A DNA stretch of 63,717 bases, counting the filler, from Reticulomyxa filosa (Eukaryota; Protista; Foraminifera): NCBI GenBank assembly GCA_000512085.1. It is 16 parts of 16 records of this genome, joined end to end, with 100 filler letters (N's around TTAATTAATTAA, not from the genome) between each part and the next. Parts side by side here need not be neighbours in the genome. Positions count along the whole stretch, not along the records: positions 3,602 to 8,596 come from ASPP01011801.1; positions 8,697 to 12,065 come from ASPP01001176.1; positions 12,166 to 19,174 come from ASPP01017138.1; positions 19,275 to 20,778 come from ASPP01043723.1; positions 20,879 to 22,165 come from ASPP01047711.1; positions 22,266 to 28,088 come from ASPP01029397.1; positions 28,189 to 34,279 come from ASPP01020420.1; positions 34,380 to 39,682 come from ASPP01000369.1; 8 more parts are not named here. One strand, 5' to 3'. The notes beneath the pieces are model-generated. The model made no database searches, was not told the origin of the DNA, and saw only the letters and a list, made by a program, of their open reading frames with translations. The position numbers and the translations under genes were made by a program. Of the stretch, positions 4,804-58,515 are shown in pieces. Numbering within the stretch: position 1 is the stretch's first letter; each line of letters begins with the position of its first letter.

Positions 4804-6005
4804 ATGGGTAACCGAAATACAAGCCCCTTTCAAAGTTTGAAGAAGTTGCCCACTCCACTTGATGAGTCTCAATGTGTGATATACAAGCACGAACTCCTCA
4901 TTTGTGGAGGTTCTGGTGAAAGAGCTTGTTATTCGTATCATATACTCAAAAACGAATACAACTTTATCTGCGACTATCCAAGCGATGTTAAATTATATGG
5001 GCACTGTGTAGTGAAACTGGTAGATAACAATCAAACCACTTTGTTATCTTTTGGTGGATCTCCTAAACATACACTGGTAATGAAATATGTAAGTGTTTGG
5101 AGTAATATATCAAACAAATCAAATGAATTCAACAATTACAATCAATGGATCCCTTTCACAGACAGCCACAATTTCCCAATTCAAATTGGAAGAGATATTG
5201 ATGACTATTATGGAATGCGTGCAATGATTGGTGGAATGAACAATAATTTGTTATTTATCACTTATTATCCAAAGAATATTAGTGTATTTGATTTAAACAC
5301 ATTTCAATTTATTAAACATGATACTTTACCAACTGATAATTCAATATTTCTTCATTGCTTTGTATCAAATTCAGAAAATGGACAAGGACAAAAAATGATA
5401 AAAACAAATAAAGAAAAAAATAAACAAAATTATCAAATGCTGTTATTTTATCGCAAGACAGGATTATCAATTGGATATAACGAAGATAACAACATTTTCC
5501 AATTTCATAAATTACCCGTTTGTGAGGACATTGCATCCTTCTGTGCATATGCATATGTGTATGTCAATGATGTCATATTCTTCTTTGGTGGATTAAATTA
5601 TCCTAATGTTTCAAAATTAGTGCACGAGTATTCAATTCAAGAAAACAAATGGATTACATTTGAAAATACTTTACCTGGTCCGTTAAGAGGTTGTGTTGCG
5701 ATATTGAGTGAAGAAGATTATCTACATATCATTGGAGGACAAGATGATAAAACTACAATAGTATCAACTCACATAAAGACTAAAGTGCGTATATGGGATC
5801 CTTTACAATTGGTAATTATCTATTTAATCAAACACAAATAAATTGATTGCGTGAAACTGATTAACAAATAATAAATAATGAACAGTTAAAAAATGAAATA
5901 AAATGTATTATTCGATGTTGGCTTCGAATTTCAGGAATAAAATTAGGATGGATTGATGATTTTGACAAAATTATTTTAAAATACAGGGAAAAAAATTACT
6001 TTTGA
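4804..6005 (+). CDS. Kelch-like beta-propeller protein with C-terminal WIR/GWIDDFDK module; exons 4804..5811 and 5886..6005
   Basis: Kelch-type blades (HELLICGG, LLSFGG, VIFFFGG..YSIQENKW, LHIIGG). Phase-0 GT-AG intron 5812..5885. Last exon reads LKNEIKCIIRCWLRISGIKLGWIDDFDKIILKYREKNYF*. Confidence 0.8.
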
Positions 6006-6214
6006 CACAAACAATGTTTTAAATGTGACCTTGATTTTTTTATTTCATCTATGTCTGTCTCATAATCATGAAACTTATATAATTTTTTGTTGAATTAAAA
6101 GATTGATTAAAAATATAACTTTTACAAATAAAAAAAATGTGTGACTTTATCGACATGTTTGTCGTTTTTGTGAAACAAGTGGAATTTAGTTATAGCATTT
6201 AAATTAAGTTATAT

Positions 6215-7100
6215 CTAAAAAGGTTGACAATATTTCATTACGATTTTATCAAAATTATCGATCCATCCTAATTTTATCTCTAAAGTTTGGATCCAATATT
6301 GAATAATACATTTTATTTCATTTTTTGACTGTTCATTATTTATTTGTTAATAAGTTTCACATAATATAATTTATTTGTGTTTCATCAAATAAAAATAAAC
6401 AAATCATTACCAACAGTAAAGGATCCCACATACGCACTTTTGTCTTCATGTGAATTGATGCTATTGTCTTTTTGTCATCTTCTCCTTCATAATGTGTATA
6501 TGATTGTCTTCTTCACTCAATATTGCAACACAATATCTCAATGGGCTGGGTAAAGTGTTTTGAAATGTCACCCATTTGTTTTCTCAACGGAATACTTGTG
6601 CACTAATTGTGAATAAACACTGTCATGACAAACAGACAGTTGACAAAATCGAAAAGTGTTGTTATCTTCGTTATATTCAATTGATAACCTGTATTTTGAC
6701 AAAACAACAACATGACTATTTTGCTTATTTTCTTCTCTTTGTCCATTTTCTGAATTTAATATAAAGCAATGATAACCAATATAATTGTTAATTGGTAATA
6801 TATCATGTTTAATAAATTGAAATACATTTAAATCAAATACACTAATATCATATTAGAGATAAGTGATAAATAACAAATGATTTTTGATTCCACCAATCAC
6901 TGCATTCCTCTATAATTAGCATAATTACTCATAATGATAATTGAATGATTGCGATTATCTGTGAAAGGAATCCATTGGCTGTAATTGTTTGATTTATTCG
7001 TTTGATTATCATTATTCCAAATACTTACATATTTCATCAGCAATGTATGTTTATTATTTCCTTTATAACTAGAGCCAAAAGATAACAATGATGTATTCAC
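6215..7100 (-). pseudogene. Decayed Kelch-like paralog, convergent with 4804..6005
   Basis: Fragments LLSFGS..KHTLLMKYVSIW..QWIPFTD and MKTKVRMWDPLLL, with frameshifts, deletions and no 5' end. Intron 6329..6410; module exon 6215..6328 is still open (SKNEIKCIIQYWIQTLEIKLGWIDNFDKIVMKYCQPF*). Confidence 0.8.
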
Positions 7101-54886: not shown

Positions 54887-56301
54887 CTATCCCCAAATAC
54901 GAATAGGACCTTTGTTTGAGCCATAACACAGATTGATATCTACATATGATTGTCAGTATTTTTGTTTCGCTTTTCTTCATTCCTTAGCGCCAAAAACTTA
55001 AGAGAGCATATTCCACGATCTTCATTATCATTTCCTTTGATTAAATATAATTGTTTATTTTTTCGAATGTCCCAAAAACGGATTGTATTGTCCCATGATC
55101 CAGAACATATTATATTTGGATTAGTCATTGTTCCATCTGCATTATTATTGTCACTGCTAACAAATGGCGAATATTCAACTGCCCACACCCAATGTGTATG
55201 TCCTTTAAATATATTTGTTTCTTTTTTTGATCGAATATCCCACAAACGAATACTGTTATCTTCTGATCCAGAGCATATTGTATCTGTTATATAAGGTGAA
55301 TATTTCACGCTTCTGATCCAGTTTTTATGTCCTGTGAAAACAGTCAATTCTTTGGCTGTTTCGACATCCCACAAACGAATGGTATAATCATATGATCCAG
55401 AACAAATGGTATATCCATTACCGCCAATCACGCCAATGCGATTACTTGTATTATCATTTTTGCGATTACTTTGCAATTGCGAAAAATTCCACACACCAAA
55501 CAGTATGTTTATGTCCTTTGAAAACATGCAATGTTTTGGATGTTTCAACATCCCATAAACGAATGGTATCGTCATATGATCCAGAACACAAATATCGACC
55601 ATTATTGAATGGTGAAAATGCAATACCACAAACGCCATTGGTATGTCCATCCAACACTCGAAACTCTTTGGCTGTTTTAAAATTCCAAAAGCGAATAGTT
55701 TTATCAAATGACGAAGAACAAACGACAGGGCGACGAGTATCCATTGCATGATCATGACTACCATATAATGAAAATTTCACACAAAACACGTCACCCGAAT
55801 GTCCACTTATAATTTGATTTGTTTGTTGGCACCTACATCCCATACACGAACTGTGTTATCAGTTGATCCAGAACAAAGGTATTCATCACCATCAAATGAT
55901 AAATAATCAATGCTACACACATTACTAGTGTGCCCAGTAAAACTTTTCACCAATTTAGACGATGAAAGGAATGTGTCAAGCATGAAGACTGCAGTTGCCT
56001 GTAGTAAATAATGGCTATTGATAATAACAATTCACAAATACATAAAAAAAAAACATAACGTAATTGACAACAATTTTGTCAAAATCATGGATCCATCCTA
56101 ATTTGATATTTAATGTTCGAATCCAATGTCGAAGAATAATTTTCATTGCTCCTTTTTCTGGCTAATTCAATCATACAATAAAAATAATTAAAATAATTAA
56201 AACAATTAAAACAATTAAAACTTGAGGCAATCAGCTTTTTGAAAGAAACTCACTGATAACAGCTTCAATACAAATTTTCTTTTGATACCGAGGTTAGCCA
56301 T
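54887..56301 (-). pseudogene. Module+WD40 repeat gene with 3 frameshifts; exons 56254..56301, 56060..56161, 54887..55998
   Basis: Repeated GH..ICSGSxDxTIRLWD blades. Module exon PEKGAMKIILRHWIRTLNIKLGWIHDFDKIVVNY. Frameshifts near 55813, 55485 and 54945, two of them in homopolymers (could be sequencing errors). Confidence 0.85.
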
Positions 56302-57120
56302 TTTCTCAACGGCTCGTTTTTTTTAGAAAATGAAAATATTTTTTGACTTCTTTTTCTTGAGATGCTCGTAGATGATATAAAATGGAAAAAATCTTCAACT
56401 TTTTTTTAAGGGAATTTTTTGAAGATTATGGAATGTCTTTAGAAGACCAACTAAAACGTAAACTTGGAAAATATTGTTGTCTAAATTTTTATTGCAAAGG
56501 CTAGATGAATGAGGAATAAGCCATATCCAAGACTCTCTTCTTGGTCCATTACAGTAACAGTTTCCTGGCCACAACATATTCACGTCATTAAAAATATATA
56601 TATAATGACCTTTTTTGTTACTATTTGTAATCATAATGGCCTTCGCAAAGTTACTTTTCCTATTCCATTCACTCACTATAAAAAATATCGTGTAAACCAC
56701 TTTCTCACTCGGAAAGATGTGCCAAGAAAAAGAGTTAATCACGCGATTAAATTAAAAAAAAAGAAAACACTAAAACAATGTTTATATTAAACAATATATT
56801 TTTATATCAATATTTTCAATATATTGAATTCCTTCAAAATATCATTAAGAATGCTCATATTTAGATATGCCTGTAAATTTTTGCTAGTTGAAAAAGAAAA
56901 AGACAAAAAAGTAAAATTTTATTTTATGATTGCTGACCTTCAAAAAAAAGAAACTTCTTGAAGTTTTCAAATGTAATAGTAATAGTGTATTTATTTTTAT
57001 TTCTTTAAAAAAATACTTGAGTTAAAGTTCTTTTCAAAAATTTTTACAAATATTTGAGAATCCTTTAAAAATTGATATTGATTATTGATAACTTTGTTCC
57101 TCTTCTGTCAAGCAAAACGA

Positions 57121-58515
57121 ATGGAAAGAATGAGTACTTTTCATACCGAAACAAAGACATCAGTACAACTACATCTGGTACGCTTCATTTTAACTCGTTC
57201 AGAATTCTGTTTGTCTTTTTGGTAATAATTGTATGTGGTTTGTAATTGACTCAGTTAAAAGAAGAAGATATTCCATTAATTATTCAACATTGGGCTCGAA
57301 TATTAAACATTAAAGCAGGATGGATCAACGATTTTGACAAATTTATTATTAAATATGTTATGTTATTTTTAAAATGCAAGCCAAAAGAATTCAAATGTTT
57401 TTCTATATCACAATTTAACATAGGCAATTAATATTTTTATATTCGATCACTTTCATTCGTCATCTAAATTACTTAAAACATTCACTGGGCACACAAGGCT
57501 TGTAAGTAGTATTGATTATCTAACATTCGATGGTGGACAATTTATTTTTTCTGGATCAGAAGATAATACAGTTCGTGTATGGGATGTTGATAACAACAAA
57601 CAAATTCAATCATTCAATGGACATTCAAATCATGTGTATTGTGTGAAATTTTCACCATATCATTATTATAATCATCGTCGAAATATCATTTGTTCTTCAT
57701 CAAATGACAACACCATTCGTTTTTGGGATATCAAAGATGATAAACAATTACAAATATTCAGTCAACACACTGGATGGATTAGTAGTATTGCATTTTCATC
57801 ATTTAGTGGTGGTAGATATTTGTGCTCTGGATCAGGTGACAATACTGTTCGTTTATGGGACGTTGAAACATCAAAATCATTACATATTTTCAACGGACAT
57901 GAAGCTGGTGTTTGGTGTGTTGATATTTCACCATTGCAAAGCAATAATAACAGTTATAATAATAAAAGTAATAATATTGGTGTGATTGGTGGTAATGGAC
58001 ATACCATCTGTTCTGGATCAATTGATAAAACTATTCGAATGTGGGATATTGAAACAGCACAACAGTTAATTGTATTCAAAGGACATAAATATACAGTGAT
58101 TAGTGTAAAATATGGATCAAATGATTTAGGAATTATTGGTGGATCAAATACAATATTATCTGGATCAGATGAAAGTATCCGTTTGTGGGATATTCGGTCT
58201 GGTCAACAAATACAAGTTTTCGATGGACATGCAGATAACATGAATGCTGTTGAATATTCACCATTTGTGGTGGATAACAATGAAATTGGTGGTAGTTCAA
58301 ATGTGATATGTTCCGGGTCAAGTGACAATAAAATTTGTTTTTGGGACATTCGATCAAATAAGAAGGAATTATATGTGATCAATGGAGATGAAGAAGATAA
58401 TGGAATCTTTTGTCTCAAATTTATACGATTAAACAAAAAGGGCAACAGCGATCGCGGCTGCGGTATTAATCTGTGTTATGGTACAGGCAAAGGTTTGATT
58501 TATCTTTGGGGATAG
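57121..58515 (+). CDS. Module+WD40 repeat protein, intact; exons 57121..57177, 57255..57356, 57424..58515 (~416 aa)
   Basis: Two phase-0 GT-AG introns. Exon 2 reads LKEEDIPLIIQHWARILNIKAGWINDFDKFIIKY; exon 3 has about seven GH..WD repeats. Confidence 0.9.

What the first reader, a model, noticed from the sequence alone, without database searches (positions are those of the whole stretch)
5886..57356. A portable ~34-aa exon-encoded module shared by two unrelated beta-propeller families, at opposite ends (candidate new adaptor domain)
Seen: five copies of consensus IIxxWxRxLxIKLGWIxDFDKxIxxY. Two are C-terminal last exons of Kelch-like genes (5886..6005 +, 6215..6328 -). Two are N-terminal exon 2 of WD40 genes (57255..57356 +, 56060..56161 -), and one is a 5'-truncated relic (3777..3836 -). 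In both WD40 genes it is a 102-nt exon with phase-0 introns on both sides; in the Kelch genes it follows a phase-0 acceptor at nearly the same position. The module exon also stays open in both frameshifted copies. Established: symmetric exons are typical substrates for exon shuffling, and short helical tags on Kelch/WD40 propellers (F-box, SOCS/VHL box) define cullin-RING substrate receptors. Inference: this may be a lineage-specific two-helix adaptor that links a large, fast-turnover propeller repertoire to one shared machine such as a ubiquitin ligase, possibly for defence or surveillance.
Basis: partly seen in the sequence, partly recalled or inferred. Interest (0 to 1): 0.82.

Follow-up and report, generated by a model that had tools for sequence, protein, structure and literature searches.

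The report
Shared helical tag on propeller families
A 34-residue tag, predicted to form two helices, sits on more than 260 Kelch and WD40 protein models of the foraminiferan Reticulomyxa filosa (before, after or between the propellers) and is likely a docking site that plugs these variable binding domains into one shared partner, most likely a ubiquitin ligase.

Summary
The five copies are real, with the splice signals described. The window is joined short scaffolds of Reticulomyxa filosa. Of these, 134 precede one WD40 clade, 34 precede a second WD40 clade, 40 end a Kelch propeller, 22 lie between a Kelch and a WD40 propeller, and 36 are partial models. The three-part genes explain 'opposite ends' by fusion and loss of a propeller; jumping of the lone exon is not needed. 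AlphaFold2 puts the module outside both propellers as two helices. It has no Pfam or PDB match, and every named hit is from this species. Across the two WD40 clades it is the best-conserved part (53% vs 34%). Binding to a cullin adaptor is inferred from architecture only: canonical BC-box, Cul2-box, F-box, LisH and D/D key residues are missing, and profile tests were null. The scan noted a similar foraminiferan tag on another genome (unchecked); my profile did not link the two. Verdict: a real, apparently undescribed, lineage-restricted tag; ligase adaptor about 50%.

The parts
4804..5811 (+). K1 exon 1: intact Kelch beta-propeller (336 aa)
   Evidence: Pfam Kelch_KLHDC2_KLHL20_DRC7 E 3e-9, Kelch_2; identical to P0009 residues 132-467
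5812..5885 (+). K1 phase-0 intron, 74 nt, GT..AG
5886..6005 (+). K1 last exon: module, short tail, stop
6215..6328 (-). K2 last exon: module, short tail, stop
6329..6410 (-). K2 phase-0 intron, similar to the K1 intron
6411..7106 (-). K2 decayed Kelch exon: 5'-truncated, several frameshifts and deletions (pseudogene)
3777..3836 (-). 5'-truncated relic of the module exon, WD40 type (GT donor at 3776)
   Evidence: E 1.7e-8
57121..57177 (+). W1 short exon 1 (donor 57178; an alternative phase-0 donor at 57163 is used by deposited model P0013)
57255..57356 (+). W1 symmetric 102-nt module exon
57424..58515 (+). W1 exon 3: intact WD40 propeller (clade W1)
   Evidence: Pfam WD40 E 1e-46
56254..56301 (-). 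second WD40 gene, short exon 1 (48 nt, phase-0 donor)
56060..56161 (-). second WD40 gene, symmetric 102-nt module exon
54940..55998 (-). second WD40 gene, exon 3: WD40 propeller (also clade W1) with two compensating single-base frameshifts near 55809 and 55488; the second is in a T run and could be a sequencing error

Best explanation
The module is a 34-residue tag, predicted to form two helices outside the propeller, that is shared by one expanded Kelch family and two WD40 clades of Reticulomyxa filosa and likely docks them onto one common adaptor of a cullin-RING ubiquitin ligase (Elongin C/Skp1 type), so that the propellers would act as interchangeable substrate receptors. Shown: the copies, their number and architectures, the symmetric exon signals and the conservation pattern. 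Predicted: the helix-loop-helix fold. Inferred history: module-WD40 genes are the oldest and most diverse; Kelch exons joined upstream at the phase-0 intron to give Kelch-module-WD40; loss of the WD40 part gave Kelch-module. Inferred and untested: the partner, and any role in surveillance or defence. It works like a BC-box/Cul2-box (VHL box) or F-box but is not a sequence member of either.
For: 266 copies in 264 models; the only partner domains found were Kelch or WD40, and long extra segments looked like gene-model artefacts or neighbouring genes. AlphaFold2: helices 342-355 and 363-373 after a complete Kelch propeller (pLDDT 68-80 vs about 90), and helices ending at 28 and 34-45 before a complete WD40 propeller (pLDDT 62-70). 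About 16 of 34 residues are strongly hydrophobic (227 full rows), more than a lone hairpin can bury (inference). Module identity across the two WD40 clades is 0.53 vs 0.34 for the propeller, and 0 of 27 propeller windows of the same length reach it; the two clades are separate (SH-aLRT 100 and 95). The hydrophobic register fits the Cul2-box pattern phi-P-x-x-phi-x-x-x-phi (PMC13061254, passages) at 265/266, 266/266 and 260/263, and fits F-box helix 1 (recalled) with an acidic residue in 242/266 and an aromatic in 251/251. KLHDC10, KLHDC3 and KLHDC2 (Kelch followed by a BC-box; PMC11568203, passages) are among the top structural matches of the Kelch model (ranks 3, 11-12 and 15-26 of 50; Z 24.9-27.0). 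One KLHDC3-EloB/C chain aligns on through module helix 1 (9d1i: Z 25.9, rmsd 5.0, 289 aligned, model 3-354). Language-model features of the last blade plus module list KLHDC2, 10 and 1 as the nearest named clusters (0.76-0.77, a lead only). History: mean module identity is 0.51 in module-WD2, 0.59 in Kelch-module-WD2, 0.68 in module-WD1 and 0.71 in Kelch-module, and the last is closest to Kelch-module-WD2 (0.60 vs 0.52-0.54). Three-part genes nest among module-WD2 genes, and the long deep Kelch branches are all three-part.
Against: Key residues of known boxes are missing: Pro of the Cul2-box/F-box register 0 of 266; small C/S/A of the BC-box 0 of 263; its Leu 2 of 258. Profile-profile scores against giant-virus Skp1 C-termini (6 rows), F-boxes (19), SOCS boxes (2) and a GYIR..IPxDI tag (2) did not exceed column shuffles (8-44 of 60 shuffles as high). 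In the other four EloB/C-containing KLHDC chains listed, the alignment stops at model residue 334-341, before the module, while muskelin (a LisH/CTLH-type protein, recalled) aligns loosely through 374 (Z 24.5, rmsd 4.5). Within families the module is only slightly more conserved than the propeller (0.68 vs 0.63, with 8 of 30 windows as high; 0.64 vs 0.59, with 6 of 26). Pairwise dN/dS is lower in the module for K1/K2 (0.24 vs 0.58) but higher for the WD40 pair (0.74 vs 0.41); each rests on 33 codons and one broken copy. High cross-clade identity could also come from late exon swapping. Tree support is weak (1 starred branch of 39 in the Kelch tree, midpoint root). The three-part models could not be checked against their DNA.
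Confidence: 0.5

Rival explanations
1. The module is a dimerisation/docking hairpin of LisH or RIIa/Dpy-30 (D/D) style: two copies would form a four-helix bundle, letting Kelch and WD40 propellers pair combinatorially or dock on an amphipathic anchor helix, with no cullin involved.
For: Length and two-helix shape match. Helix 1 has hydrophobic residues at columns 9, 10 and 14 (259/262, 255/263, 237/264) and an aromatic at 13 (258/264), as in both recalled patterns. N-terminal LisH before WD40 and helices after the Kelch of muskelin are known layouts (recalled); muskelin aligns loosely through the module.
Against: LisH Gly-aromatic pair: 1/265 and 0/266. D/D Gly and Pro: 0/264 and 0/266. No Pfam LisH, RIIa or Dpy-30 match among 47 members. 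Huge birth-and-death propeller families with such tags are not known to me.
Confidence: 0.25
2. The module is a structural cap or linker inherited from one ancestral gene and carried passively through fusion, fission and largely neutral duplication; it binds no shared outside partner.
For: One Kelch family and WD40 relatives are physically linked in 22 models. Within-family conservation is within the range of propeller windows and dN/dS is inconsistent. 3 of the 5 copies in the window are broken or relics. All named hits are from one species.
Against: It is kept on three different propellers and at three positions, which a fold-specific cap would not need; it is the best-conserved part across the WD40 clades; it is modelled with lower confidence than the propellers and outside them.
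Confidence: 0.15
3. The tag recruits some other shared machine (chaperone, membrane or cytoskeletal motor adaptor in the reticulopodial network) rather than a ligase or itself.
For: Same conservation and portability evidence; no box consensus is met.
Against: No positive evidence from any call; the propeller-plus-small-helical-tag layout is most typical of cullin receptors (PMC13061254, PMC4403949, passages).
Confidence: 0.1

Closest known systems
KLHDC1/2/3/10 (Kelch plus C-terminal BC-box; CRL2/CRL5 substrate receptors)
   Same: Six-bladed Kelch of similar fold (Z 24.9-27.0) running straight into a short helical tag; hydrophobic spacing of helix 2 fits the Cul2-box pattern.
   Different: No BC-box small residue or Leu, no Cul-box Pro; the tag also occurs N-terminally and internally; hundreds of paralogues instead of four.
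F-box/WD40 receptors (FBXW7, beta-TrCP) and plant F-box/Kelch families
   Same: Short N-terminal helical tag before a WD40 propeller; large birth-and-death families; F-box helix 1 register partly matched.
   Different: Two helices only; no Pro; no Pfam F-box hit; null profile comparison.
LisH-WD40 proteins (LIS1, TBL1) and muskelin; RIIa/Dpy-30 D/D domains
   Same: About 34-residue two-helix unit; helix 1 hydrophobic and aromatic spacing (recalled patterns).
   Different: Signature Gly/Pro residues absent; no Pfam match.
Foraminiferan 'half-F-box' tag of earlier scan note e1-9910997 (unchecked); GYIR..IPxDI motif in P0365/P0366
   Same: About 30-residue two-helix tag on many proteins; by eye the hydrophobic spacing of P0365/P0366 lines up with the module.
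   Different: The module profiles gave no score at that motif and hhalign was null, so homology is not shown; I could not see that note's sequences or its short Skp1.

Membership tests
BC-box/Cul2-box (VHL box) | Cul2-box phi-P-x-x-phi-x-x-x-phi (PMC13061254) | tested here: not met
   hydrophobic positions 265/266, 266/266, 260/263 but Pro 0/266; any Pro in columns 18-28 in 4/266
BC-box/Cul2-box (VHL box) | BC-box [STP]-L-x3-[CSA]-x3-phi (recalled) | tested here: not met
   STP 2/255, Leu 2/258, CSA 0/263; last hydrophobic 237/264
BC-box/Cul2-box (VHL box) | helix placed like the BC-box after the last Kelch blade | tested here: inconclusive
   1 of 5 listed EloB/C-containing KLHDC chains aligns through helix 1, rmsd 5.0
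BC-box/Cul2-box (VHL box) | binds Elongin C and a cullin | not testable with these tools
   no R. filosa adaptor sequence could be obtained; no genome held
SOCS box | Pfam SOCS_box match or Cul5-box LPxP | tested here: not met
   no hit; Pro in 4/266; null hhalign against 2 SOCS boxes
F-box | Pfam F-box match, Leu-Pro start, three helices | tested here: not met
   no Pfam hit; Pro 0/266; two helices in the Kelch model; null hhalign
F-box | binds Skp1 | not tested
LisH | helix 1 ending in Gly-aromatic; Pfam LisH match | tested here: not met
   Gly 1/265, aromatic 0/266; no Pfam hit
LisH or D/D | homodimeric four-helix bundle | tested here: inconclusive
   see Tried and rejected
RIIa/Dpy-30 D/D domain | Gly-aromatic in helix 1, Pro before helix 2 (recalled); Pfam match | tested here: not met
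   Gly 0/264, Pro 0/266; no Pfam hit
propeller blade (Kelch or WD40 repeat) | beta-strand blade within the propeller | tested here: not met
   helical and outside the strands in both models

The most novel reading that the evidence does not exclude
Reticulomyxa runs a non-canonical cullin-RING system in which a rewired two-helix box, unrecognisable as F-box or BC-box, plugs hundreds of fast-turnover Kelch, WD40 and double-propeller (Kelch-box-WD40) receptors into a foraminiferan-specific shortened Skp1/Elongin C-like adaptor, forming an intracellular surveillance repertoire in a giant syncytial protist.
Probability: 0.25. Interest if true: 0.78.

Novelty: new variant of a known kind. Interest (0 to 1): 0.5.

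Why it matters
It gives a handle on one of the largest unexplained gene expansions in the reference foraminiferan genome. More than 260 models now labelled only 'WD-40 repeat protein', 'Kelch motif family protein' or 'hypothetical' share one tag, so one pull-down with a 34-residue bait would assign the whole repertoire. If the partner is a cullin adaptor, it shows that substrate-receptor boxes can drift beyond recognition in little-studied eukaryotes, so Pfam-based E3 censuses undercount them, and it adds a two-propeller receptor layout with the box in the middle. If not, it is a new combinatorial docking module. Its reach is limited: one species so far, and no partner shown.

Tried and rejected
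No whole genome is held, so copy number is a lower bound from protein searches and intron phases outside the window could not be read. RNA: no RNA holder was listed for 4700-7200. Complex prediction of two copies of the W1 module: no answer (score 0.02 in both runs, mark 0.32, my alignment not used, controls not folded); it is not evidence either way. PDB sequence searches: only chance-level hits (best E 0.32; best E 0.1). Atlas with the module alone: no feature hit and only short-helix structure rows; none for the P0365 motif. Relatives in DNA collections: 0 of 33 pattern matches in viral contigs and 0 of 63 in metagenome contigs confirmed. A recalled GYIR..IPxDI motif: 44 viral stretches, none convincing; 4 metagenome stretches, 1 real (L045); a protein search from it gave 2 of 3 candidates; no statistical link to the module. 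'Exon stays open in pseudogenes' rejected as evidence. 'Integral blade' rejected. Literature: nine searches listed no paper describing this motif; I saw listings only, except passages of four papers. PMC12475580 names Reticulomyxa only in a species table. The R. filosa genome paper (recalled) was not listed and not read, and its supplements may mention these families.
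Full report
Observation. The five copies are at the stated coordinates and translate to the stated consensus. 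A profile of the four full copies finds exactly these five in the six frames of the window; the next hit is at E 0.31. The window is 16 short scaffolds joined by N spacers. K1, K2 and the relic share scaffold 3602-8596 (4995 bases); the two WD40 genes share 49511-59211 (9701 bases). Deposited proteins P0009 and P0013 of Reticulomyxa filosa come from contigs of these lengths and hold the window's exons letter for letter. All six introns that flank full module exons have GT..AG ends and phase 0. K1 and W1 are intact; K2 is a decayed pseudogene; the second WD40 gene has two single-base frameshifts. That the exon is open in the broken copies is expected by chance (0.63-0.83).

Size and architecture of the family. 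A word-seeded search gave 155 hits, 120 listed, all named R. filosa. An exhaustive HMMER search with a 47-row profile against 1.84 billion representatives gave 198 hits at E 0.001 or better, 150 listed and unnamed. Ten picked from the weakest 20 listed were all R. filosa (10 of 10); the 48 unlisted were not seen. A search with the junction of P0074 gave 1017 hits, 120 listed, of which 20 were R. filosa; all 20 carry the module and none of the other 100 does. Pooled, 264 proteins hold 266 copies: 134 before WD40 clade W1, 34 before clade W2, 40 after Kelch, 22 between Kelch and W2, and 36 in partial models. Labels come from BLAST rules on gene models of uneven quality. No other recurring partner domain was seen. 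In Kelch-module proteins the module ends the chain (tail of 6 residues or fewer in 30 of 36). In models without Kelch and with W1, the next residue is Val in 79 of 132, the mark of read-through into a GT donor, against 0 of 36 in Kelch-module.

Why opposite ends. The three-part genes give a simpler route. Module diversity is highest in module-W2 (mean identity 0.51) and lowest in the two families present in the window (0.68, 0.71); Kelch-module copies are closest to those of three-part genes. In a WD40 tree (19 of 22 three-part, 24 of 34 module-W2, 8 random of 134 module-W1, 8 outgroup rows; quick method), W1 and W2 are separate clades (SH-aLRT 100 and 95), and three-part genes fall among module-W2 genes in more than one place, with a main clade of 13 at 99. 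In a Kelch tree (42 of 62 rows long enough; the careful run did not finish, quick tree, midpoint root), the four long deep rows are three-part and Kelch-module rows lie among them with at least 5 label changes and weak support. So: module-WD40 first, Kelch joined upstream at the phase-0 intron, WD40 lost again. The order is inferred, and I could not see the DNA of the three-part models.

What the module is. It has no Pfam family (0 of 4; one weak Hfq hit among 47). AlphaFold2 with 52 and 70 rows gives complete propellers with the module outside as helix-loop-helix at lower confidence. Strongly kept columns include Trp13 98%, Gly22 98%, Trp23 98%, Ile24 96%, Phe27 94% and Tyr34 99%, with about 16 hydrophobic residues of 34. 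Across W1 and W2 it is better kept than any of 27 propeller windows (0.53 vs 0.34).

Mechanism. A small conserved helical tag that can sit before, after or between substrate-binding propellers, in a family with rapid birth and death, is the layout of cullin-RING substrate receptors. These are defined by such boxes (PMC13061254, passages); Skp1 and Elongin C are structural homologues that bind F-box helix 1 and VHL/SOCS-box helix 3 alike (PMC4403949, passages); in KLHDC3 the last blade runs into the BC-box (PMC11568203, passages). The Kelch model matches KLHDC10, 3 and 2 among its top rows, though two Kelch structures of NS1-BP rank first (Z 28.3). One KLHDC3-EloB/C chain aligns loosely through helix 1, and muskelin through both helices. 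Atlas features of the last blade plus module point to KLHDC1/2/10 at lead level only. Against membership, every canonical box lacks its key residue here, and profile comparisons with Skp1 C-termini, F-boxes and SOCS boxes taken from giant-virus contigs were no better than column shuffles (small sets, low power, F-boxes chosen by my own pattern). I therefore say it works like a BC/Cul-box or F-box (0.5) and is not a sequence member of either. A LisH- or D/D-like dimerisation hairpin is the main rival (0.25), then a passive cap or linker (0.15) and another partner (0.1). The BC-box, F-box helix 1, LisH and D/D patterns are recalled and come from no call.

Earlier scan note. e1-9910997 (another genome; AI note, unchecked) describes a foraminiferan two-helix 'half F-box' tag modelled onto a shortened Skp1. 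It agrees with my prior reading and gave the idea of a shortened adaptor. I found one environmental protein pair with a tag of the kind I recall for foraminifera, but my profiles did not score it, so identity of the two tags is open. A search of the scan by this sequence found no look-alike.

Novelty and score. Nine literature searches listed no description of the motif (listings only, plus passages of four papers; the genome paper was not seen). It is best rated a new variant of a known kind: a lineage-restricted receptor tag with an unusual middle position in double-propeller proteins. It is real, large in scale and directly testable, but confined so far to one species with no partner shown. 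Interest 0.5; the novel reading has probability 0.25 and would merit about 0.78.

Noticed in passing
window:34380-39682: A whole scaffold holds one long, apparently intron-poor, frameshifted gene or gene run: ankyrin repeats (Pfam Ank_2 E 4e-22), then stretches that by eye resemble a nucleotidyltransferase and a PI-kinase-like domain (no Pfam hit), then weak LRR. It looks like genes of amoeba-associated bacteria or a transferred gene (my impression).
   Followed up: partly
L049:8-1773 (giant virus bin G001): A giant-virus contig encodes an Elongin C-like protein (Skp1_POZ E 3e-9) flanked on both sides by genes ending in SOCS-box-like motifs: a virus that seems to carry its own adaptor beside its receptors.
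   Followed up: partly
L045:58-1305: AT-rich (GC 0.25) environmental contig encoding a protein with a GYIR..IPxDI two-helix-type tag before a weak DEP domain (E 0.006); one close relative, P0366.
   Followed up: partly
window:4804-7106: K1 and K2 are a tail-to-tail (convergent) paralogue pair with stops 210 bases apart; their introns and last exons are similar while the K2 propeller has decayed.
   Followed up: partly
window:54940-58515: The two WD40 genes are a head-to-head (divergent) paralogue pair about 820 bases apart; deposited model P0013 of W1 reads into intron 2 and drops the first blade, an example of poor gene models in this family.
   Followed up: partly
P0123, P0126, P0129 and relatives (not in the window): The best non-Reticulomyxa matches of the second WD40 clade are highly regular WD40 proteins, mostly unnamed; those named are mostly bacterial, one fungal. 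The ancestry of this clade was not studied.
   Followed up: no
window:29100-30167: Long ORF ending in a Gly-rich GGxGG repeat region with no Pfam match at E 10.
   Followed up: no
window:13813-15091, 16033-17691, 23761-25101, 31659-33053, 51840-53713: Ordinary eukaryotic genes on other scaffolds: G-alpha, RabGAP-TBC, MIF4G, AAA ATPase (NSF-like by eye), ARM-repeat protein (importin-alpha-like by eye).
   Followed up: no
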